From positions 1 to 38,347 of IMG/VR virus record IMGVR_UViG_3300045988_153982: a stretch of 38,347 nucleotides of DNA, one strand, 5' to 3'. Below, piece after piece: positions 766-34,643 of this stretch; position 1 is the stretch's first letter; every line of letters starts with the position of its first letter. Under the pieces are notes generated by a model, which saw only the letters and a program-made list of their open reading frames with translations, did no database searches and had not been told where the DNA came from. This DNA comes from a virus. The position numbers were made by a program, and so were the translations under genes.

Positions 766-1995
766 ATGATAAGTGAAGAATTACAAGAAAAGTTGTTAAG
801 TGTATTTAATAAAAGATTTCAAGATTATAACACAAAAGTATTAGAAGAATTAGGAAATGTTATTAAGCAATTTAAGGATTTAACCCCATCACAGGCTTAC
901 AAGTTAGGTCAGCAACTAAAATACAATACAACTATCAAGGGCTTATTAGATGAGTTATCTAAAATCAGTGGCTTGTCTGTTAAAGACTTGAAAGCAATAC
1001 TAGAAAAGGTTGCAAAAGAGAATATTGGTTTTGCTGATGTGTATTATAAAGCAAGAGGACTTGAAACACCTATTTATAGTGAAAATAAAGCACTTCAGAG
1101 GCTTGTTTCTAGTGTTTATAGTATAAGTGGCACAGAATTTAAAAACATTGCTAAAAGCACAGGTTTTAGGCTTTTAGGAGATAATGGTAAGCCTTTGCTA
1201 CTAGATATTGATGAAACATACAAGTATGTAATAGATAAATGTGTAATTGCTATTAGTCAAGGAAAAGAAACATATCAGCAAAGTATGAGAAGCACTTTAA
1301 AGCAATTATCTTCAAGTGGAGTTCGTAAAATAGAATATGAGAGTGGTTATTCAAGAAGATTAGATACTTCTATTAGGCAAAATATACTTGATAGCATGAG
1401 GCAAGTATCAAATGAAAGCCAACAATTATTTGGCAAAGAATTTGATAGTGATGGTGTAGAAGTATCAGTACATGAAATGCCAGCACCAGACCATGAATTG
1501 GTACAAGGTCGACAATTTAGTAATAAAGAATTTGAAAATTTCCAAAATGATAGAAAAGCAGTTGATTATACTGGTATGGTATTTGAACCCGAATTTAAGG
1601 GGCATGATAGAAGAAGTATAAGTGAATATAACTGCTATCATTACATATTTAGTATAGTTTTAGGTGTATCTAAACCACAATATAGTAATAAGCAATTACA
1701 AGAAATAATTGATAACAAAAACAAAACATTTGAATTTGATGGCAAGACTTATAATATGTATGAAGGCACTCAATTACAAAGAAGAATTGAAACAGCTATT
1801 CGTGAAGCAAAAGATACACAAATACTAGCACGAGCAAGTGAAGATAATGAATTAGTATTACAAAGCCAAACAAGAATTACACAATTAACAACAAAATACA
1901 AGCAATTATGCAATATAAGTGGTCTACCTAACGAGTTATCTACTAGGGCTAGTGTTCCAAATTATAAAAGAATTGCAAAAAACAAATTAATGTGA
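766..1995 (+). CDS. Putative head morphogenesis / minor capsid protein (SPP1 gp7 / Mu F-like)
   Basis: AAGGAG RBS. 409 aa. Sits upstream of scaffold and major capsid. Carries an HEMPAPDHEL...NCYHY region typical of gp7-like minor head proteins. Assignment is partly by position. Confidence 0.5.
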   Translation: MISEELQEKLLSVFNKRFQDYNTKVLEELGNVIKQFKDLTPSQAYKLGQQLKYNTTIKGLLDELSKISGLSVKDLKAILEKVAKENIGFADVYYKARGLETPIYSENKALQRLVSSVYSISGTEFKNIAKSTGFRLLGDNGKPLLLDIDETYKYVIDKCVIAISQGKETYQQSMRSTLKQLSSSGVRKIEYESGYSRRLDTSIRQNILDSMRQVSNESQQLFGKEFDSDGVEVSVHEMPAPDHELVQGRQFSNKEFENFQNDRKAVDYTGMVFEPEFKGHDRRSISEYNCYHYIFSIVLGVSKPQYSNKQLQEIIDNKNKTFEFDGKTYNMYEGTQLQRRIETAIREAKDTQILARASEDNELVLQSQTRITQLTTKYKQLCNISGLPNELSTRASVPNYKRIAKNKLM

Positions 1996-2001
1996 TATAA
2001 T
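1973..2001 (+). promoter_or_regulatory. Sigma-A-like promoter TTGCAA-N17-TGaTATAAT (extended -10)
   Basis: ttgcaa at 1973..1978, 17-nt spacer ending tgtga, tataat at 1996..2001. The TGA stop of the upstream gene forms the TG extension. Same architecture at 29584..29612 and 28761..28789. Confidence 0.5.
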
Positions 2002-2483
2002 TAATGCGGTGGGAAAAGTTTTTTACAATTTATTTACGTGTTACCTTTATAGGTAGCATAGAATAGATATATAACCTGTGTTGTATCTTAAAGTTATTGA
2101 AAGATAAAAACTATTGCAATAGTTATATCTATTCTATGGTGCTTATAAAAAGCACTAAACACTCCATATAGAACTCAGGGGTTTTTGGAGGTTATTATCT
2201 CCACATTATTGGAATGTTGCACCTAACACTATCTTAACAGGTAGTGTACTGATGATATATAAAAAACAAGACAGAGGTTTTTAACATATTAAATTATGGT
2301 TTTATACTCAACCGTCCTAGTAACTCTAGTGAAAAAAACTTATAGAGTATTGGTGAACTTTGACACCTATATCATTAGTGCAGTATCTATTAAAGATACA
2401 ATTGTAATCATAGTAAGATTTTTATTGGGGCTACTCTGGGCGACCTTATGAGTAGATAATAGGCTGTCAACCTAAAATTGAAT

Positions 2484-2507
2484 GGTGGTTCGAGTCCACC
2501 CACTTGC
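2484..2507 (+). other. tRNA-like T-arm element (ggtgg-ttcgagt-ccacc plus 7 nt) with no matching 5' acceptor strand
   Basis: Perfect 5-bp stem and canonical TTCGAGT T-loop seen in the sequence. No complementary gcaagtg within 150 nt upstream, so it is not a full tRNA. Confidence 0.35.
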
Positions 2508-2613
2508 TAAAAACATAATAATTAAGTATAATTTGACACATTAGAAAGGTTATTGTTGTTGATAGTGTATGTGAAGTGTGTTTGGCTAACATACCCCTGA
2601 TGTATTTGAAATT

Positions 2614-2640
2614 AAGCAACCTTAAATGGTTGTTTTTTTG
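2614..2640 (+). terminator. Rho-independent terminator
   Basis: gcaacc-ttaaat-ggttgt hairpin followed by a T7 run. Confidence 0.55.
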
Positions 2641-2669
2641 TGGCTTATTTAATAAAAAATAAATAAAAA

Positions 2670-2726
2670 CAGATACCCTATCTATACCCTATCTATACCG
2701 TAGGTATACATCTGTATCTGTATATA
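2670..2726. repeat. Iteron cluster (GATACCC/TATACCC/GGTATAC cores, tandem taccctatctat x2, tctgta x2). Second copy of the origin repeats found inside the replisome-organizer gene.
   Basis: Shares tctataccctat (12 nt) and atacatctgtatctgtat (18 nt) with 24294..24347. Confidence 0.55.
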
Positions 2727-2815
2727 TATATTATTTATTATTATTTATATTAATTATTATTAAATATATTATTAAAATAAATGTATATAATTTATAAATT
2801 TTAAATATTTTTTTG
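2727..2815. promoter_or_regulatory. Very AT-rich tract flanking the iterons (candidate DNA-unwinding element)
   Basis: About 90 nt of near-pure A/T (tatatatatattatttattattatttatattaattattattaaatat...). Confidence 0.4.
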
Positions 2816-2820
2816 TAATT

Positions 2821-2849
2821 TTGACAAGAATAAAAAGTTGTGGTATACT
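2821..2849 (+). promoter_or_regulatory. Consensus sigma-A promoter TTGACA-N17-TATACT upstream of the scaffold/capsid genes
   Basis: ttgaca at 2821..2826, 17-nt spacer, tatact at 2844..2849. Confidence 0.65.
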
Positions 2850-2910
2850 TTTAACTAGATATTAAATCTAGTTGGAGTAGACCAACGAAAAAAATCTAGG
2901 AGGAGATATT

Positions 2911-3486
2911 ATGAAAGATTATTTAGAAAAATTAGAAATTGGAGAAGAAGGGCTTACAAAAGACCAAATAAAAGGTATTATTGCTGAGGCAAGCAAAATG
3001 ACTACTAATGAAGTTAATAAAATTAAAACTGAATTAGAAAAAGAAATTGCCGAAAAAGATGAAGTAATAAAATCACTTAATGAAGATATAAAAAAATCTC
3101 CAAGTGCTGATGAACTAGAAAATCTAAAATCAAAAGTTGCTGATTATGAAACAAAAGAAAAAGAAAGAAAAAAACAAGAAGATAAAAAAATCTTTGAGGA
3201 AAATCTTAATAAAAATGTTTTAGAGGCAATTGGCGATGCTGAATTTGTTAATGAAAGAACAAAAAATGCAATCATTAATGAAGTAAAAATTGCTTTACAA
3301 GATAAAGCAAATGTTGGCAAATCTGCTAAAGATATTTTTGAAACTATCACAAAAGATAGCACAGACATATTTAAAAATAAAAACGAGTTAAGTGATATGC
3401 CTGATATTCAAGAAAGTAAACCTGCAGAAGGCAAGTCAACAAGCGAGGGTATAAAAATCAACCCTATGTTCAAAACTGATTTTTAG
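2911..3486 (+). CDS. Head scaffolding protein
   Basis: GGAGGAG RBS. 191 aa, highly charged coiled-coil protein directly upstream of the major capsid gene. Confidence 0.6.
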   Translation: MKDYLEKLEIGEEGLTKDQIKGIIAEASKMTTNEVNKIKTELEKEIAEKDEVIKSLNEDIKKSPSADELENLKSKVADYETKEKERKKQEDKKIFEENLNKNVLEAIGDAEFVNERTKNAIINEVKIALQDKANVGKSAKDIFETITKDSTDIFKNKNELSDMPDIQESKPAEGKSTSEGIKINPMFKTDF

Positions 3487-3508: not shown

Positions 3509-4426
3509 ATGGCTAATACAATTAACCATGCTGCAAAATATAATAGAGAATTAATCGAAACATTTATTGAAAATTCTTATGCAGCACCATTTGTTGCGAC
3601 TAATGTTGATTGGTTAGACGCAAAAAACTTCCATTTTACAATTTTAAAAACTGGAGGTTATAAAAACCATGCTTTAACTGGAGGATGGAACAGACAAGAA
3701 ATAACTGAAACTGACAAAGTTTACACAGTTACTCAAGACAGAGATGTAGAGTTCTTCTTAGATAAAAGAGACGTTGACGAAAGCAACAGAACTGCTACAA
3801 TTGAAAATGTATCAAATACATTTGAAAAAACACAAGCAACACCAGAAAAGGATGCTTACTTCTTTAGTAAAGTTGCAACTGAAGCAACAACTGCTAACAT
3901 GAGTAGTTCAACTGCTATTGCAGATTATACTAGTGCAAATATCTATACTAAGGTAGTTCAATTCATTGGTAAATTAAGAAGATACAGAAATAAAGGTTTA
4001 ATCGTTTATATTGCACCTGAATTAATGGACTTATTAGCATTATCAACTGAATTAACACACCCAATTGAAAGTATGGGATTTGTTGAAGGTGGAAAAGCAA
4101 TTCAAACAAGAATTACAAAAGTAGACAATGTTCCAGTTGTTGAAGTAATTGATGATGACCGTTTCTATTCACAATTTAACTTTACTGACGGATTTGCACC
4201 AGCAAAAGGTGGATTTAAAATCAATATGTTAGGTTGTACTCCAATGACAACTAAAGTTGTACCAAAAATTGAAAGTATTTATTTCTTTGCACCAGGAGAA
4301 CATACTGAAGGCGATGGATACTTATATCAAAACAGAGCACACTATGATACATTCGTATTCCCTAACGGAAAAGATGGCAAAGTTGATAGTGTTTATGTAG
4401 ATTTAGATACAACTGCTGTTGCTTAA
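3509..4426 (+). CDS. Major capsid protein
   Basis: AAGGAGAG RBS. 305 aa. Position after the scaffold gene. Codon usage like a highly expressed structural gene. Confidence 0.65.
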   Translation: MANTINHAAKYNRELIETFIENSYAAPFVATNVDWLDAKNFHFTILKTGGYKNHALTGGWNRQEITETDKVYTVTQDRDVEFFLDKRDVDESNRTATIENVSNTFEKTQATPEKDAYFFSKVATEATTANMSSSTAIADYTSANIYTKVVQFIGKLRRYRNKGLIVYIAPELMDLLALSTELTHPIESMGFVEGGKAIQTRITKVDNVPVVEVIDDDRFYSQFNFTDGFAPAKGGFKINMLGCTPMTTKVVPKIESIYFFAPGEHTEGDGYLYQNRAHYDTFVFPNGKDGKVDSVYVDLDTTAVA

Positions 4427-18491: not shown

Positions 18492-18568
18492 GTACCGTTG
18501 ACGAAGTGGTTTAACGACAATGTCTGCAAAACATTGATACACAGGTTCAAATCCTGTACGGTACTCCA
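18492..18568 (+). tRNA. tRNA-Cys (anticodon GCA at 18526..18528) with encoded 3' CCA
   Basis: Perfect 7-bp acceptor stem gtaccgt/acggtac. T-arm acagg-ttcaaat-cctgt. Anticodon stem caatgt/acattg with 7-nt loop cTGCAaa (U33 and A37 present). Discriminator t then cca. The D-arm pairing is weak. Confidence 0.65.
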
Positions 18569-18571
18569 TTA

Positions 18572-18600
18572 TTGAATTTTAATAGTATTTATGCTATAAT
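18572..18600 (+). promoter_or_regulatory. Promoter TTGAAT-N17-TGcTATAAT upstream of the HNH gene
   Basis: ttgaat at 18572..18577, tgctataat at 18592..18600. Confidence 0.45.
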
Positions 18601-18656
18601 TATAAATGGAGATAGCCCTAATCTATCTCCAAATCATTTATTAGGGAGATGATATT

Positions 18657-29365: not shown

Positions 29366-29606
29366 AATAATGCATTTGTGCGAATACTACGATTTTATAA
29401 AAACCGACATGTGTTTTTATACTTTCAAAGATTTTGTAGGCAACGCAGAATACATAAAAAGCATATTTGACACATCGACAAAATATGAAAAACAATTGTA
29501 TAAACTTTATGTATATGCAAACACACACATGAATTTGCCACGCAAAAATCTAATATGGGATTATCTCAACGGTTACAAGAATTTTGCAAATTTATTATAT
29601 TTGTGA
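29346..29606 (+). CDS. Hypothetical protein (86 aa) upstream of terminase
   Basis: ORF. Function unknown. Confidence 0.4.
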   Translation: MENLEDEIMHLCEYYDFIKTDMCFYTFKDFVGNAEYIKSIFDTSTKYEKQLYKLYVYANTHMNLPRKNLIWDYLNGYKNFANLLYL

Positions 29607-29612
29607 TATAAT
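29584..29612 (+). promoter_or_regulatory. Promoter TTGCAA-N17-TGaTATAAT (same class as 1973..2001)
   Basis: ttgcaa at 29584..29589, spacer ending tgtga, tataat at 29607..29612. The TGA stop of the upstream ORF is embedded. Confidence 0.5.
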
Positions 29613-29641: not shown

Positions 29642-31198
29642 GTGGCTAACATAGACAATCTAGTGTCTTTAGCAGATAGAACACAACAAGAACGCAACGA
29701 AATAGCCAGAAAGGGTGCAATTGCTAGTAATAAAGTACAAAAAGAGAAGAAAACAATGCGAAAAGAGTTAGAACTTTTATTAGAAGCCGAAGCAAAAAAT
29801 GGCAAGACCTATCAAGAGAACATAACACTTGCACTAATGGGTAAGGCAATAAAAGGCGACACAAAAGCTTATGAAATTATCAGGGATACAGCAGGACAAA
29901 ACCCCGATAAGATTAAAGATGAAGTTGAAAAAGTAGAACAGATAATTCAAATACCAGCAAAAGACATCGCAAAGTGTTTTGTTGATATAAACAGAAGTAT
30001 AGACGATAGAGAATATAGAGAATATTTTTTAGAGGGCGGCCGTGGTAGCACAAAGTCATCTTTCATAAGTGAAAAGGTAATAGAGTTATTAGAAAACAAC
30101 CCTAAAATGTGTTGTGTTGTATTAAGAAAAGTAAAAGACACTTTAAAAGATAGTGTGTTTGCACAATTAGAGTGGGCTATTGATACTTTGGCTGAAACAT
30201 ATCCAACTATAAAGAAAGATTATAAATTAACTAAAATCCCTATGGAAATAACAAAACTAAGCACAGGGCAAAAGATATTCTTTAGAGGTGCTGATGATTA
30301 TGGTAAAATTAAGTCATTAAAAACGCCAAAGGATATGTATGTAGGTATAACTTGGTATGAAGAGTTCGACCAGTTTGCTGGTATGTTAGAAGTTCGTAAA
30401 ATAAATCAGTCATTAATTCGTGGTGGCGATGATTATATACAATTTTATTCATACAATACACCACCTAGCAAACAACACTTTGTCAACATTGAAAAGAGAA
30501 TACCTAAGCCATCAAGGCTTGTTAATTTAAGTGATTATAGAGATGTTCCTAAAAAGTGGCTAGGGCAAGCATTTATTGATGAAGCTGAGTTCTTAAAAGA
30601 AATAAATGAAAAAGCATATGAAAATGAATATTTAGGAATAGAAACAGGAATTGGCGGAAATGTATTTGAAAACCTTGAAATAAGAGAAATAACTAACGAA
30701 GAGATAGAAACATATGATTATATTTATATGGGGCTTGACTTCGGATGGTACCCAGACCCTTTGGCTTGGACTAAAATGTGTTATAATCCAGCACAAGGAG
30801 CATTATATATCTTTGATGAGTTTTTAGTAAACAAAATGAGTAATGCTGATGTTTGGGATTATTTAGTTGAGAACAAAGGCGTTACTACTGATGACATGAT
30901 AATTGCAGATAGCGCTGAGCCAAAGTCAATAGGCGATTTTAAAAGTTATGGTGCATTAATAAAAGGTGCTGAAAAAGGACCTGAAAGTGTCAAGTATTCT
31001 ATGAAGTGGTTATCTAGTTTAGCAAAGATAGTTATAGACCCTGTGAGATGCCCTAAAACAATGCAAGAATTTAGCAATTATGAATATGAACAAGACAAAG
31101 ATGGTAATTGGATAAGTGGTTATCCAGATGAAAACAACCATACAATAGATAGTGTAAGATATGCTCTTAACAAGATTTGGAAAAAGAAAGGAGAATAA
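29642..31198 (+). CDS. Terminase large subunit (PBSX/XtmB-like) with about 125-aa N-terminal extension, GTG start
   Basis: FLEGGRGSTKSS Walker A. C-terminal nuclease region with IADSAEP and YPDENNHTIDSVRY. GAGGTGG RBS 4 nt before GTG. Confidence 0.85.
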   Translation: MANIDNLVSLADRTQQERNEIARKGAIASNKVQKEKKTMRKELELLLEAEAKNGKTYQENITLALMGKAIKGDTKAYEIIRDTAGQNPDKIKDEVEKVEQIIQIPAKDIAKCFVDINRSIDDREYREYFLEGGRGSTKSSFISEKVIELLENNPKMCCVVLRKVKDTLKDSVFAQLEWAIDTLAETYPTIKKDYKLTKIPMEITKLSTGQKIFFRGADDYGKIKSLKTPKDMYVGITWYEEFDQFAGMLEVRKINQSLIRGGDDYIQFYSYNTPPSKQHFVNIEKRIPKPSRLVNLSDYRDVPKKWLGQAFIDEAEFLKEINEKAYENEYLGIETGIGGNVFENLEIREITNEEIETYDYIYMGLDFGWYPDPLAWTKMCYNPAQGALYIFDEFLVNKMSNADVWDYLVENKGVTTDDMIIADSAEPKSIGDFKSYGALIKGAEKGPESVKYSMKWLSSLAKIVIDPVRCPKTMQEFSNYEYEQDKDGNWISGYPDENNHTIDSVRYALNKIWKKKGE

Positions 31199-32535: not shown

Positions 32536-33195
32536 ATGAATATTTTATTAGGGATAATAGGAATAGTTTTATGTTTTGGAATAGAAGTGTTAATTGAAAA
32601 AATATTTAAAAAAGAAGGATTATATGCATGGATAAGTGTGACATTAGTTACAGCAAATATATTAGTTGCTAAAAATATTGATATATTAGGTTTGCAAGCA
32701 ACATTAGGAAACATATTGTTTGCAAGTACATTTTTAGCGACAGACATATTAAGTGAAAAATATGGTACTAAAGAAAGCAAAAAAGCAGTGAATATTGGTA
32801 TTGTATCAGTTATCTTATTCACAGTAGCAACACAGTTTAGTTTATTATTTAAATCAAATGAAATTGACTTAGTAAATGACAGTTTGAAAAATTTATTTTC
32901 TTTAAATTTGAGAATAAGTGTTTCTAGCATATTAATGTGTTATTTAAGTAATATGATAGATATAGTTTTATTTGAGAAAATCAAGAAGAAGATACCTAAC
33001 AAGTTATGGTTAAGAAATAACATAGCGACAATAACAAGCAATTGTTTAGAAAATTATTTATTTACAATATTTGCATTCATAGGTATTTATGATTTAGGAA
33101 CAATATTCTCTATTGCTACAACTACAACAATATTAGAAATTATAATAGCAATATGTGATACACCATTCTTATATTTAAGCAAAAAATTAAAATAA
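32536..33195 (+). CDS. YhhQ/VUT-family (DUF165) queuosine-precursor transporter-like membrane protein
   Basis: AAGGAG RBS. Six predicted TM helices. NILFASTFLATDILSEKYG matches E. coli YhhQ FPFIFLATDLTVRIFG. SNCLENYLFTIFAF matches GNVSDTLAFFFIAF. Confidence 0.7.
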   Translation: MNILLGIIGIVLCFGIEVLIEKIFKKEGLYAWISVTLVTANILVAKNIDILGLQATLGNILFASTFLATDILSEKYGTKESKKAVNIGIVSVILFTVATQFSLLFKSNEIDLVNDSLKNLFSLNLRISVSSILMCYLSNMIDIVLFEKIKKKIPNKLWLRNNIATITSNCLENYLFTIFAFIGIYDLGTIFSIATTTTILEIIIAICDTPFLYLSKKLK

Positions 33196-33242: not shown

Positions 33243-34643
33243 ATGCTACAAAATATATTTTTGTGGATTATGGAACATATCTTTAAAATTAAAACACAGA
33301 CTACACCAGATGTGGTTAGTCAAAACAATGATTATCAAAGGGAATACGAGCGAATAGACCAAATTAACTTTACTTCAATATTTGCTAACAAAATATCTAA
33401 TTATGTGGCAAACGATAGCAATATTGATGTTACTGGAACGAGTGAAAGAGCAAAGTATTTCAATGAAATTGCACAAAGTATGAAAAGGAAATTAAAAAAG
33501 ATTTCGTCAACAATTTTAGGAGTTGGAGGTATTGCAATAGTTCCTTATGTTAAAAAAGGAAAAATATATTACAATATTGTTCCACAAAATAGGGTTTTAA
33601 TTGATGAAAAGACTGGTGACTTAATCACTGGGGCGACTATTCTTGCAGAAAGCAAGGTTGTAAGTGATTTAGTTAGCCAAAAAATTTATTACAGGTGGAC
33701 TAATTATCAAATAAGAAATAACAACTTGATTATTCAACAAAAGTTTACTGATGAAAATGGAAATGAGTTAAAAGATACACCTGAATTTTGGGCTGGAGTT
33801 CAAACGATATTAAGCATTAGCAATGTTGACAGAGTTCCGTTTGCTTTTGTAATAAGCCCTATAAATAATAGAAAACCAAGTGATGACTACGGAGTGCCTA
33901 TCACTTATGGTTGTGACGAAACAATAACAGAAATAAAAGAGTGCTTAAAGCAAATAGTTAGAGAATTTAAAGTAAAAGAAACATTCATTGGCGTTGACTA
34001 CTCAATGTTTAAAAAAGACAAAAATGGACATTGGGAATTGCCGGAGGATGGACTTTACAAAAAGTTCAATAGTGATAAAGATGACTTTTGGGAAGTATTT
34101 AGCCCAGAAATAAGACAAAGTTCTTATTATGAAAGATTAAGGGAATTGTATTCAAGACTTGAAAAAGAAATTGGAACAAGTGCAGGAATACTAACTGAAA
34201 TAGAAACAGCGAATGCGACTGCAACTGCTATTAAAAGGGCATTGTATGATACTTTAACAATAGTAGATGATTTAAGAGATAACCTAGAACAAGGCTTTGA
34301 TGATTTCTTTAAGGCCTGCGATGTTCTAACAAATGCTTATAATGTTGTTCCAAGCGGTACTTTTGAATTATCTTACGATTGGGATTTATCTTTACTTGAA
34401 GAACCGCAAGAAACATATAACCAATATGTACAAGGTTTAAGTCAAGGCGTTGTTAAGAAAGAAGAACTAAGGCAATTCATATTTAGCGATGAAACACTAG
34501 AAGAAAGCAAAAAGGCTATTGAAGAGATAGAAGAAGAAACACCTAGTGTTGATAAGTTGCTTGATGATGAAGAAGATAATGCTGATAATAACAAAGATAA
34601 GCAGGATGATAAGAAAAACAAAGAAAATGAAGAGAAAGAGTAA
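33243..34643 (+). CDS. Portal protein (SPP1 gp6-like)
   Basis: AAGGAGAG RBS. 466 aa with a strongly acidic C-terminus. Located after the terminase region. Confidence 0.6.
   Translation: MLQNIFLWIMEHIFKIKTQTTPDVVSQNNDYQREYERIDQINFTSIFANKISNYVANDSNIDVTGTSERAKYFNEIAQSMKRKLKKISSTILGVGGIAIVPYVKKGKIYYNIVPQNRVLIDEKTGDLITGATILAESKVVSDLVSQKIYYRWTNYQIRNNNLIIQQKFTDENGNELKDTPEFWAGVQTILSISNVDRVPFAFVISPINNRKPSDDYGVPITYGCDETITEIKECLKQIVREFKVKETFIGVDYSMFKKDKNGHWELPEDGLYKKFNSDKDDFWEVFSPEIRQSSYYERLRELYSRLEKEIGTSAGILTEIETANATATAIKRALYDTLTIVDDLRDNLEQGFDDFFKACDVLTNAYNVVPSGTFELSYDWDLSLLEEPQETYNQYVQGLSQGVVKKEELRQFIFSDETLEESKKAIEEIEEETPSVDKLLDDEEDNADNNKDKQDDKKNKENEEKE

What the first reader, a model, noticed from the sequence alone, without database searches (positions are those of the whole stretch)
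1973..2640. About 630-nt ORF-free, hairpin-dense transcription unit (promoter to terminator) with a tRNA-like T-arm: candidate large structured ncRNA (ROOL/GOLLD-like class)
In a genome where genes are otherwise ATGA-coupled or separated by a few nt, 1996..2910 (over 900 nt) has no ORF above about 25 codons. It begins with an extended -10 promoter (TTGCAA-N17-TGATATAAT) and ends with an intrinsic terminator at 2614..2640. In between are numerous stable hairpins (17-bp stem 2057..2141; gtgcttataaaaagcac; ggaggttattatctcc; acactat...tagtgt; ctactc...gagtag) and a canonical tRNA T-arm (ggtgg-TTCGAGT-ccacc, 2484..2500) without an acceptor partner. Large ornate RNAs of the ROOL and GOLLD classes are known to reside in phages and prophages of low-GC Firmicutes, typically near or fused to tRNA-like elements. 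This locus, in the middle of the head-gene module, has that character. I cannot confirm the class from memory of its consensus.
Basis: partly seen in the sequence, partly recalled or inferred. Interest (0 to 1): 0.7.

Follow-up and report, generated by a model that had tools for sequence, protein, structure and literature searches.

The report
Tandem bistable hairpin RNA modules in phage
The ORF-free stretch is real, but it is not a ROOL or GOLLD RNA: it holds two copies of an unannotated hairpin RNA module of about 100-180 nt that many uncultured gut and rumen phages carry in tandem next to tRNA genes, just ahead of their capsid-scaffold or terminase genes, with function still untested.

Summary
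The promoter (1973-2001), terminator (2614-2640), hairpins and T-arm are all present, and the + strand folds far better than shuffles (z -7.6). No Rfam 15 family matches, so it is not ROOL, GOLLD, HEARO, OLE, raiA or tmRNA.

The unit is a composite: promoter, leader, module U1 (2036-2159), linker, module U2 (2224-2403), a lineage-specific 186-nt insertion with a decayed tRNA 3' half (2428-2613), then the terminator.

The module recurs as 161 copies (129 distinct) in 83 loci, 80 of them IMG/VR phage contig stretches and two Bacilli MAGs. It forms arrays of up to four, nearly always co-oriented with genes. Arrays sit before scaffold or terminase genes, and 25 of 27 tRNA genes in those loci lie within 525 nt of a copy.

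Covariation supports two exclusive folds: three hairpins (P1, P2, P3), or one helix of at least 22 bp with a conserved G.G mismatch.

Close relatives swap, add or lose units, or carry an HNH gene in place of U1, so this is not one conserved 630-nt RNA.

My best guess is a cis-acting processing or stability cassette of late transcripts. This is inferred, not shown. Antitermination, a trans-acting RNA and a selfish palindromic repeat remain open.

The parts
1973..2001 (+). Promoter TTGCAA-N17-TG-TATAAT. It overlaps the stop codon of the minor-capsid gene (766-1995).
   Evidence: Found. The same promoter precedes the RNA cassette in L001, L002, L003, L005, L012 and L076. A twin promoter lies before the terminase large-subunit gene at 29584-29612.
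2003..2035 (+). Leader of about 33 nt between the promoter and the first module
   Evidence: 89-92% identical to L005 and L076
2036..2159 (+). Module U1 (type 1). P1 hairpin 2038-2059; P2 stem 2060-2071/2124-2135 with a branched apex 2072-2123; P3 hairpin 2137-2157. Alternative fold: 2046-2059 pairs with 2136-2149 and extends P2.
   Evidence: Scores 82.0 bits (E 1e-11) with model R1 and 70.3 bits with R2. Predicted energies are -37.5 kcal/mol for the three-hairpin form and -39.9 for the long-helix form.
2160..2223 (+). Linker with the small hairpin GGAGGTTATTATCTCC (2189-2204)
   Evidence: No homologue in any fetched locus.
2224..2403 (+). Module U2 (type 2). P1 2226-2247; P2 2248-2259/2368-2379; apex of about 108 nt with four small hairpins; P3 2383-2399.
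   Evidence: Scores 85.1 bits (E 3e-17) with R2, which was built without window sequences. Window 2229-2400 is 95% identical to L098 and 84% to L039, with unrelated flanks. Six compensatory pairs appear among three sequences.
2404..2427 (+). Conserved tail after U2 (GTAATCATAGTAAGATTTTT...)
   Evidence: Shared with L001 and L003, where it runs straight into the terminator
2428..2613 (+). Lineage-specific 186-nt insertion. It holds a tRNA 3'-half remnant (2430-2508; anticodon-arm-like 2462-2476, T-arm 2484-2500) and a promoter-like site (2504-2532).
   Evidence: Absent from L001, L002 and L003 at the same junction. The tRNA model scores 18 bits against a gathering score of 29, and ARAGORN finds nothing. 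No match in any fetched locus or in IMG/VR.
2614..2640 (+). Intrinsic terminator AAGCAACCTTAAATGGTTGTTTTTTT
   Evidence: Found. The same terminator ends the arrays in L001, L003, L005 and L098. In L016 and L062 it stands directly before the ribosome-binding site of the terminase-small-like gene.
2821..2849 (+). Context: second promoter TTGACA-N17-TG-TATACT, serving the scaffold (2911-3486) and major capsid (3509-4426) genes
   Evidence: The layout promoter, unit(s), terminator, promoter, gene recurs in L003, L012 and L060.

Best explanation
SHOWN. The locus is a transcription-unit-like cassette carrying two copies (U1, U2) of a conserved modular RNA element that is absent from Rfam 15.

- Each module has four pairing segments around a long stem P2 with a free-to-vary apex. 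Segments 1:2 form hairpin P1 and 3:4 form hairpin P3. Alternatively 2:3 pair and extend P2 into a helix of at least 22 bp with a conserved G.G mismatch.
- The modules are read on the gene-sense strand. They occur in tandem arrays, travel between unrelated phages as cassettes, and sit with tRNA genes. The arrays lie in front of head-scaffold genes or at the start of the packaging (terminase) operon.
- Some apexes are complete tRNA-like cloverleaves whose acceptor stem is the top of P2.

INFERRED (most likely mechanism). The module is a cis-acting 'punctuation' cassette of late transcripts.

- The long-helix form would be a substrate for the host double-strand RNase (RNase III). In tRNA-bearing versions RNase P and RNase Z would also act.
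- Cleavage would excise P2 with its apex and separate upstream from downstream RNA.
- The severed ends would then refold into P1, a 3' cap on the upstream RNA, and P3, a 5' cap on the downstream RNA that protects against 5'-exonuclease in Bacilli.
- This would uncouple the highly expressed scaffold and capsid message, or the first packaging genes, from what lies upstream.

In this window the cassette also has its own promoter and terminator. It would therefore additionally yield free small RNAs, like a small tRNA operon whose tRNA has decayed.
For: Family and structure:
- R1 and R2 find exactly two modules in the 38-kb window.
- There are 161 forward-strand units, 129 distinct, in 83 loci (the window, 80 IMG/VR stretches and two MAG contigs), forming 78 distinct arrays of up to four units by model R1; R2 adds further type-2 units to some.
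- The 2:3 helix is 98.1% canonical against 91.9% in shuffles (0 of 1000 reach it). It has 68 double-change cells against 9.5 expected. Register shifts drop pairing to 19-49%. The G.G mismatch is present in 118 of 124 units.
- P1 is 86.7% canonical against 81.4%, with 58 double-change cells against 18 expected. P3 is perfect in 84 of 124 units against 6.9% for shuffled tails, with GGUGC/GCACU, GGUAC/GUACC and GAGGC/GCCUC swaps.
- Segments 1 and 4 do not pair in register (61% canonical, with conserved C.C and A.C mismatches).
- The two folds are close in energy: the median difference is -3.9 kcal/mol out of roughly -30 to -40.

RNA strand:
- G.U pairs outnumber A.C by 269 to 8 in the 2:3 helix.
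- The forward strand scores 30-40 bits above the reverse.
- 155 of 161 units are co-oriented with the flanking ORFs.

Placement:
- Downstream genes are scaffold proteins of four PHROG families, or terminase subunits. Upstream genes are minor-capsid or portal proteins, or late transcription regulators.
- Some units fill portal-stop to ribosome-binding-site gaps with no room for a promoter or terminator: L027 4743-4846, L073 6517-6599, L100 6308-6396.
- In L076 the same promoter, leader, U1 and U2 run straight into the ribosome-binding site of the gene that opens the cluster holding a probable large terminase, although no protein is shared with the window.

tRNA link:
- 25 of 27 tRNA genes in these loci lie within 525 nt of a unit, on the same strand.
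- tRNA-model hits of 46.8 and 42.4 bits lie inside units in L016 and L047.

The apex varies in sequence and in length (about 17-170 nt) while the base stays conserved. That fits a processing stalk.
Against: - There is no transcript, cleavage or stability data of any kind. RNase III, P and Z involvement is inferred from geometry alone.
- In this window a good terminator and a second strong promoter separate the array from the scaffold gene. The cassette therefore need not act on the scaffold mRNA here.
- The base of the module is conserved in sequence, not only in pairing. Generic RNase III recognition would not require that. It hints at a specific protein partner or at recent horizontal spread.
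- Tandem repetition is not obviously needed for processing.
- The apex of U2 is itself under structural constraint, with three hairpins kept by compensatory changes. A mere processing stalk does not predict that.
- The units are related to each other, so the shuffle statistics overstate independence.
Confidence: 0.4

Rival explanations
1. Leader for terminator read-through (processive antitermination or attenuation). The nascent modules, alone like HK022 put RNA or with a phage protein like lambda nut/N, would make RNA polymerase resistant to the terminator that follows the array and to later terminators of the long late operon. Without the signal only the short ~630-nt RNA would be made, as with lambda PR'-6S-tR'.
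For: - The layout promoter, units, terminator, gene recurs. In L016 and L062 the array ends in the same terminator as in the window, and the ribosome-binding site of the terminase-small-like gene follows within about 40 nt with no promoter in between.
- Terminators follow arrays in about 24 of 78 cases, for example L034, L078, L024 and L060.
- The array promoters look like strong housekeeping promoters, so control after initiation would make sense.
- The 1:2 / 2:3 / 3:4 topology is that of classical attenuators.
Against: - P3 (3:4) is not followed by a U run, and the terminator is a separate hairpin 25-60 nt or more downstream.
- About two thirds of arrays have no terminator before the next gene.
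- The window and L003, L012 and L060 have a second promoter after the terminator, which makes read-through unnecessary.
- No candidate antiterminator protein was identified.
Confidence: 0.2
2. Selfish or recombinogenic palindromic DNA repeat, similar to REP/REPIN/BIME, BOX or MITE elements. It would spread or be shuffled at the DNA or single-stranded-DNA level and be merely tolerated in the few roomy intergenic gaps of the late region. Any RNA effect would be secondary.
For: - The whole unit is a long imperfect inverted repeat whose ends are small palindromes containing GTAG.
- It is multi-copy and tandem, with a variable core.
- It moves as a discrete block: window 2229-2400 is 95% identical to L098 and 84% to L039, and identity stops at the unit ends.
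- The L016/L062 breakpoint lies inside the P1 loop.
- A hairpin is inserted inside the P3 loop in L028 relative to L056.
- An HNH endonuclease gene sits in the array in L002 and L003.
- All phage genes lie on one strand, so an orientation bias could reflect replication rather than transcription.
Against: - The P2-based pattern hits only 2 of 185,579 species genomes, once each, so it is not a host-genome repeat.
- No transposase was seen beside the arrays.
- No target-site duplication was seen.
- The outer arms do not pair in register (61%), unlike terminal inverted repeats.
- G.U pairs outnumber A.C by 269 to 8.
- The U2 apex hairpins are kept by compensatory changes.
- The same two functional positions recur in front of non-homologous scaffold or terminase genes.
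Confidence: 0.2
3. Trans-acting stable RNA or RNAs co-expressed with phage tRNAs. Candidates are a decoy or sponge for a host RNA-targeting or tRNA-targeting defence, a protein-binding scaffold, or an RNA-only assembly of the kind now known for ROOL and GOLLD.
For: - Autonomous promoter-to-terminator units occur in the window, L001, L005, L012 and L060.
- Units are tightly linked to tRNA genes and some carry tRNA-like apexes. This is the same context as reported for ROOL and GOLLD (PMC5737381).
- Neighbouring cargo in relatives is conflict-related: a toxin domain Ntox50 fused to the minor-capsid protein in L003, and HAD_SAK_2 of RNA-repair proteins in L002.
- The U2 apex is structurally constrained.
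- A palindromic apical hairpin CUAUUGCAAUAG recurs in several units and could mediate loop-loop contacts.
Against: - Many copies are bare intercistronic elements, or are fused to the ribosome-binding site of the next gene.
- Apexes are mostly unconserved.
- No antisense target exists in the phage genome beyond chance 11-13-mers.
- No partner protein is known.
Confidence: 0.15
4. ROOL, GOLLD or another catalogued large ornate RNA.
For: Only context supports it: a phage, low-GC Bacilli, rumen and gut metagenomes, a nearby tRNA-like element, and a length of about 630 nt.
Against: - No Rfam match in the window at gathering score, nor at E up to 10 over 1900-2950.
- None in L001, L005 or 14 further module-bearing loci, about 160 kb in all.
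- The region is modular and is not conserved as a whole among close relatives.
Confidence: 0.02

Closest known systems
ROOL and GOLLD RNAs (Rfam RF03087, RF01998; accession numbers from my memory)
   Same: Both are ORF-free structured RNA loci of phages and prophages of low-GC Firmicutes and of rumen and gut metagenomes, often next to tRNA genes (PMC5737381). Here 25 of 27 tRNA genes lie within 525 nt of a unit.
   Different: [quoted passage not shown] ROOL and GOLLD form homo-oligomeric complexes (PMC12286853).
- This locus is a tandem of units of about 100-180 nt with a variable apex, and unit number and content differ among close relatives.
- No covariance-model match.
RNase III processing sites that punctuate phage polycistronic mRNAs and leave stabilising hairpins (T7 R-sites, Bacillus phage SP82 sites; from my own knowledge)
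   Same: Both are long imperfect helices with a conserved internal mismatch, placed between genes of one transcript and co-oriented with it. The apex is free to vary, and local hairpins could cap the products.
   Different: No cleavage data exist here. The module base is conserved in sequence across unrelated phages. It has a built-in alternative fold, it is tandemly repeated, and it is tied to tRNA genes.
tRNA 'punctuation' and small stable RNAs made from phage tRNA operons (mitochondrial tRNA punctuation; T4 species 1 and 2 RNAs; P1/P7 C4 and P4 CI RNAs matured by RNase P; from my own knowledge)
   Same: Units are co-transcribed with tRNA genes. Some units carry a cloverleaf that passes the Rfam tRNA threshold, with its acceptor stem formed by P2.
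   Different: Most units have no tRNA-like apex. The conserved part is the leader-trailer helix and its flanking hairpins, not the tRNA-like body.
REP/BIME/REPIN and pneumococcal BOX elements (from my own knowledge)
   Same: Both are modular palindromic intergenic repeats in tandem clusters with a variable middle. They are transcribed with neighbouring genes and can move or recombine as blocks.
   Different: - These units are phage-borne only, with 2 hits in 185,579 genomes.
- No cognate transposase was seen.
- The outer arms are not complementary in register.
- Orientation and position preferences are strong.
Lambda PR'-6S RNA-tR' and HK022 put leaders (from my own knowledge)
   Same: The layout is the same: a constitutive-looking promoter, a structured leader, an intrinsic terminator, then late structural genes.
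   Different: There is no sequence or structural similarity. Many copies lack a downstream terminator. No antiterminator protein has been identified.
Bacterial Y RNAs (YrlA; from my own knowledge)
   Same: The architecture of some units (L016, L047) matches: a long basal stem topped by a tRNA-like domain.
   Different: No Rfam match was found. No rsr (Ro) gene was examined. Most units lack the tRNA-like domain.

Membership tests
ROOL (Rfam) | Match to the family covariance model. [quoted passage not shown] | tested here: not met
   No hit at gathering score in the window. No hit at E up to 10 over 1900-2950 with permissive filters. None in related loci.
ROOL / GOLLD | Context: phage or prophage, near tRNA genes | tested here: met
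   The window is a phage with head, tail and terminase genes. A tRNA remnant lies at 2430-2508. Units are linked to tRNA genes across loci. This feature is contextual and does not define membership on its own.
GOLLD, HEARO, OLE, raiA (Rfam) | Match to the family covariance model | tested here: not met
tmRNA | tRNA-like domain plus tag reading frame, as detected by ARAGORN or Rfam | tested here: not met
   ARAGORN finds only tRNA-Cys at 18492-18568. Rfam finds none.
tRNA gene (2430-2508) | Cloverleaf with acceptor stem, scoring at or above the Rfam gathering score of 29 bits | tested here: not met
   It scores 18.0 bits (E 1) and the acceptor and D regions do not pair. ARAGORN finds nothing. 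It is a decayed 3' half with an anticodon-arm-like hairpin and a canonical T-arm.
New module family defined here (models R1, R2) | P1 hairpin (GCUAYC-loop-GGUAGC), P2 stem with a variable apex, and P3 hairpin (GGUGC-loop-GCACU), on the gene-sense strand | tested here: met
   U1 scores 82.0 bits with R1. U2 scores 85.1 bits with R2, which was built without window sequences.
New module family defined here | Alternative 2:3 helix with a conserved G.G mismatch, supported by covariation | tested here: met
   In the window, U1 pairs 2046-2059 with 2136-2149. U2 keeps the helix through UGU:ACA-type swaps.
REP/REPIN/MITE-like mobile repeat | Many copies dispersed in the host chromosome | tested here: not met
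   Two single-copy hits in 185,579 species genomes, both Bacilli MAG contigs. Only one type-1 pattern was scanned.
REP/REPIN/MITE-like mobile repeat | Terminal inverted repeats complementary to their ends, and target-site duplications | tested here: inconclusive
   The outer arms pair in register in only 61% of cells. No duplication is visible at four U2 junctions. However, the blocks do move with sharp borders.
RNase III processing site | Cleavage by RNase III in vivo or in vitro | not testable with these tools
   Only the geometry could be checked: a helix of at least 22 bp with one conserved mismatch.
Y RNA (YrlA) | Match to the Rfam model, and a neighbouring rsr gene | tested here: not met
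   No Rfam hit. Presence of rsr was not examined.

The most novel reading that the evidence does not exclude
The modules are a new class of phage RNA made together with phage tRNAs. They would be excised from a precursor by the host's tRNA-processing and double-strand RNases. The released hairpins, some of them tRNA mimics, would then act in trans. For example, they could serve as decoys against tRNA-targeting or RNA-targeting host defences, or as self-assembling RNA particles. That would put them in the same biological niche as the still unexplained ROOL and GOLLD RNAs.
Probability: 0.15. Interest if true: 0.8.

Novelty: new variant of a known kind. Interest (0 to 1): 0.6.

Why it matters
If the element is functional, it is an unannotated, widespread RNA building block of phages that infect uncultured low-GC Bacilli of gut and rumen. 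It has a clear two-state design and a strict address: with tRNA genes, in front of the scaffold-capsid genes or the terminase genes.

- It would show how these phages set the very different expression levels of neighbouring head genes. It would also offer a compact, portable RNA processing, insulation or stability part for Gram-positive engineering.
- Its tie to tRNA genes, and the occasional tRNA cloverleaf inside the module, gives a second and much simpler system in which to ask why phage tRNA clusters carry large structured RNAs. That question remains open for ROOL and GOLLD.
- For annotation, it explains recurrent ORF-free gaps of 0.1-0.9 kb in such phage genomes. It also shows that these gaps are hot spots of cassette exchange.

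Tried and rejected
- Known RNA families. Rfam found nothing but tRNA, at gathering score (window and 12 loci) and at E up to 10 (window 1900-2950, L001, L005) or up to 2 (six loci).
- Cultured phages. blastn of 1900-2950 against 50,697 GenBank phage records gave no match.
- Hidden protein gene. The 51-codon ORF 2296-2451 is not conserved. The 168-aa ORF of L002 and L003 is an HNH endonuclease that replaces U1 and has no counterpart in the window.
- tRNA or tmRNA gene. Not detected.
- Antisense regulator of the phage's own genes. Only chance-level 11-13-nt matches were found.
- Origin of the 2428-2613 insertion. No homologue in 101 loci or in IMG/VR by exact 24-mer.
- Simple long terminal inverted repeat. 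Rejected because segments 1 and 4 do not pair in register.
- CRISPR-like array, type III toxin-antitoxin repeats, retron, integron attC, 6S-like RNA and phi29-type packaging RNA. I considered these from memory and dropped them. The units are not short direct repeats. No reverse transcriptase, integrase or Cas gene was noticed in the flanking ORFs I examined. There are no ORF cassettes between units. There is no central bubble. The phage has a normal terminase.
- Literature. Four full-text searches found no description of this motif. A 2023 catalogue of 10,006 candidate viral structured RNAs (PMC10690425) may include it, but its tables are not held.
- The metagenome scan was not used, because IMG/VR gave enough copies.
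Full report
SETTING. The window is a phage genome of about 38 kb and about 28% G+C, with essentially all genes on the + strand. The finding lies in the gap 1996-2910. Upstream is a gene for a minor capsid protein of the SPP1 gp7 type (766-1995; Pfam PF06152, E 3e-54). Downstream are the head scaffolding gene (2911-3486) and the major head gene (3509-4426). The terminase large-subunit gene is at 29642-31198 and the portal gene at 33243-34643.

OBSERVATION. The listed features are present.
- The extended -10 promoter is at 1973-2001 and the terminator at 2614-2640. The region holds 3 terminator-like sites against 0.3 expected.
- The long stem, the small hairpins and the T-arm at 2484-2500 are all there.
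- The + strand of 2003-2645 folds to -165.2 kcal/mol against -134.2 +/- 4.1 for shuffles (z -7.6). The - strand reaches only z -3.7.
- The claim of no ORF above 25 codons is inexact, since ORFs of 51 and 50 codons exist. The 51-codon ORF is cut short or broken, and its start codon lost, in homologous copies.

NOT A CATALOGUED RNA. Rfam 15 finds only the tRNA-Cys at 18492 in the window at gathering score. Over 1900-2950 at E up to 10 it gives only noise and a sub-threshold tRNA match (18 bits, gathering score 29) at 2430-2508. ARAGORN finds no tmRNA. Scans of L001 and L005 at E up to 10, of six further module-bearing loci at E up to 2, and of 139 kb in twelve loci at gathering score gave nothing but tRNAs. 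GenBank phage records have no similar DNA. [quoted passage not shown] That membership test is not met.

WHAT CLOSE RELATIVES SHOW. Five IMG/VR contigs encode a minor-capsid protein 77-94% identical to the window's. Four of them (L004 ends too soon) keep the same promoter, and the same or nearly the same terminator, around a variable interior.
- L001 and L005 have about 630-800 nt without ORFs, but with three units.
- L002 and L003 have a 168-aa NUMOD4 + HNH endonuclease gene in place of the first unit.
- Window 2428-2613, which holds the T-arm, is an insertion absent from L001, L002 and L003. It has no homologue in any fetched locus or in IMG/VR.
The 630 nt are therefore not one conserved RNA.

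THE MODULE. Reading these loci revealed a repeated unit.
- P1 is a hairpin, GCUAYC-UUUAUA-GGUAGC.
- P2 is a stem, for example AGAGUAGAUAU...AUAUCUAUUCU, with a variable apex.
- P3 is a hairpin, GGUGC-UUAUAAA-GCACU.

A pattern fixing only 20 bases of it found 52 IMG/VR stretches. About 42 of them also show the unspecified P1 and P2 pairings. A second pattern, fixed on P2, found 44 stretches. In 185,579 species genomes it found only two hits, both MAGs labelled as uncultured Bacilli.

Covariance model R1 finds 161 forward-strand units, 129 distinct, in 78 distinct arrays of up to four. Forward scores are 30-40 bits above reverse scores. Model R2 was built from 13 diverged 'type 2' units, none from the window. 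It scores window 2224-2403 at 85.1 bits and 2036-2159 at 70.3 bits, and nothing else in the window. The finding therefore breaks down as follows:
- leader 2003-2035
- U1 2036-2159
- linker 2160-2223
- U2 2224-2403
- tail 2404-2427
- insertion 2428-2613
- terminator 2614-2640

TWO FOLDS. RNAalifold proposed that the 3' half of P1 pairs with the 5' half of P3 and so prolongs P2. I tested this on 124 units.
- This 2:3 helix is 98.1% canonical, against 91.9% for shuffles (0 of 1000 reach it). It has 68 double-change cells against 9.5 expected, with CAU:AUG, UGU:ACA, CAC:GUG and UUU:AAA swaps.
- Pairing falls to 19-49% when the register is slid. A G.G mismatch is conserved in 118 of 124 units.
- P1 also beats shuffles (86.7% against 81.4%; 58 against 18 double changes). 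P3 is perfect in 84 of 124 units against 6.9% for shuffled tails, with several compensatory types.
- Segments 1 and 4 do not pair in register (61%, with conserved C.C and A.C mismatches). The unit is therefore not a plain inverted repeat. It has a 1:2 / 2:3 / 3:4 topology.
- Predicted energies of the two forms are close. The median difference is -3.9 kcal/mol. Window U1 gives -37.5 against -39.9.
- G.U outnumbers A.C by 269 to 8 in the 2:3 helix, which places the pairing on the gene-sense strand.

The units are related to each other, so these statistics overstate independence. The variety of swap types and the slid-register control argue that the signal is real.

U2 AS A CASSETTE. Window 2229-2400 is 95% identical to L098 and 84% to L039, while the flanks are unrelated. 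Among these three sequences six pairs changed on both sides. Four of the six lie in three of the apex's four small hairpins. In L076 the same promoter, leader, U1 and U2 stand directly before the ribosome-binding site of the gene that opens a cluster with a probable large terminase. That phage shares no detectable protein with the window. L016 and L062 are 99.9% identical up to a breakpoint inside a P1 loop. Beyond it L062 has a tRNA-Gln gene, where L016 has a unit with a tRNA-like apex.

WHERE THE ARRAYS SIT.
- 155 of 161 units are co-oriented with the flanking long ORFs.
- Clustering and PHROG annotation of neighbours shows two addresses.
  - One is between a portal or minor-capsid gene and a head scaffolding gene, with four different scaffold families.
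  - The other is between a late transcription regulator (phrog_36-like) and the terminase genes.
- Some units fill the whole gap from portal stop codon to ribosome-binding site (L027, L073, L100). In others the ribosome-binding site replaces the 3' half of P3 (L037, L085, L096).
- Elsewhere the layout is promoter, unit(s), terminator, promoter, gene (window, L003, L012, L060). In L016 and L062 it is array, terminator, ribosome-binding site with no promoter in between.
- By my simple scan, about 24 of 78 arrays are followed by a terminator.

tRNA LINK. Of 27 tRNA genes found by ARAGORN in unit-bearing loci, 25 lie within 525 nt of a unit and on the same strand. Examples are five tRNAs, then a unit, then the scaffold gene in L045, and units, then tRNA-Arg, then the terminase large-subunit gene in L023, L034 and L100. 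The loci are centred on units, so some bias exists, but chance would give roughly 10-15%. In L016 and L047 the apex plus the top 7 bp of P2 passes the Rfam tRNA threshold, at 46.8 and 42.4 bits. The window's T-arm belongs to a decayed tRNA 3' half next to U2, which fits this pattern.

INTERPRETATION. It is shown that this is a new, widespread, strand-specific, two-state RNA module. Its function is inferred.

I favour a cis-acting processing and stability cassette.
- The long-helix form has the geometry of an RNase III substrate, and the tRNA-bearing versions that of RNase P and Z substrates.
- Excision of P2 would leave P1 at the 3' end of the upstream RNA and P3 at the 5' end of the downstream RNA.
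- This would explain why both folds are conserved, why the apex is free to vary, why the units sit where expression levels must change, and why they accompany tRNAs.

Weak points.
- There are no RNA data.
- The window has its own terminator and a second promoter.
- The module base is conserved in sequence.
- The U2 apex is structurally constrained.

Rivals are a read-through (antitermination) leader, a selfish or recombinogenic palindromic repeat, and a trans-acting RNA of the tRNA operon. Their evidence is listed in the rival entries.

NOVELTY. I found no description of this motif in Rfam 15 or in four literature searches. A 2023 catalogue of candidate viral structured RNAs may contain it without characterisation (PMC10690425). 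In kind it resembles known intergenic structured repeats and processing signals. Its two-state design, its tRNA linkage and its fixed address are its own.

Noticed in passing
L003 4001-5665; L001 4001-5737; L005 3085-4812; window 766-1995: The minor-capsid (gp7-like) protein of close relatives is 554-578 aa. In L003 its extra C-terminal part is a Pfam Ntox50 toxin domain, followed by a small ORF that could be an immunity gene. The window's copy stops at 409 aa, right where the RNA promoter begins.
   Followed up: partly
L002 5701-6180: A 159-aa protein with the HAD_SAK_2 domain ('Swiss Army Knife' RNA repair proteins) sits between the minor-capsid gene and the RNA cassette.
   Followed up: no
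L003 5916-6422; L002 6414-6920: A 168-aa NUMOD4 + HNH endonuclease gene replaces the first RNA unit. Its stop codon lies in the P1 loop of the next unit. Its ribosome-binding site appears to be sequestered by an upstream hairpin (GAAGAGGTG...CACCTCCTTC / CCGTAAT...ATTACGGGAGGTG).
   Followed up: partly
window 2650-2820: Just after the terminator there are two 11-nt direct repeats (ACCCTATCTAT) inside an inverted repeat (CAGATAC...GTATCTG), then about 120 nt of nearly pure A+T. Positions 2724-2767 are 100% identical to the end of L001. The function is unknown; it might be a binding site or an origin-like region.
   Followed up: partly
window 29584-29612: A second promoter of the same type (TTGCAA-N17-TGTGATATAAT) lies directly before the terminase large-subunit gene. 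This suggests a shared promoter class for the packaging genes and the RNA cassette.
   Followed up: no
window 32536-33195: A Vut_1 family (putative vitamin or queuosine-precursor uptake transporter) gene lies between the terminase and portal genes. It is an unusual cargo gene inside the packaging module.
   Followed up: no
L016 9015-9138 (-); L047 3744-3861 (+): tRNA-like sequences above the Rfam tRNA threshold are nested in the apex of modules. One has a 67-nt insert in the anticodon region and the other a 46-nt variable arm. ARAGORN does not call them.
   Followed up: partly
window 2109-2122; also L020, L065, L017, L043 apexes: A palindromic apical hairpin (CUAUUGCAAUAG or a close variant) recurs just before the 3' strand of P2 in otherwise unrelated apexes. 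It could allow loop-loop dimerisation.
   Followed up: no
L016 and L055 (minus strand), L028 (plus strand), immediately 3' of the units (L016 unit 2708-2807, L055 4402-4514, L028 3625-3717); L028 compared with L056: Many scaffold-side units are followed by an extra hairpin with a GAAA loop and the run UUUAUUAUG. In L028 a 33-nt hairpin of this type lies inside the P3 loop, and it is absent from the near-identical L056.
   Followed up: partly
window 18492-18631: The only intact tRNA gene (Cys, GCA) lies 16 kb away from the modules. It is followed by a promoter-like site and a 9-bp hairpin (TGGAGATAGCCCTAATCTATCTCCA).
   Followed up: no
L006 5420-5560: A more distant relative (53% identical minor-capsid protein) keeps the promoter at the gene's end. 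However, it has only a short hairpin and a terminator there, followed by a second promoter and small genes. The RNA modules are therefore optional at this site.
   Followed up: no
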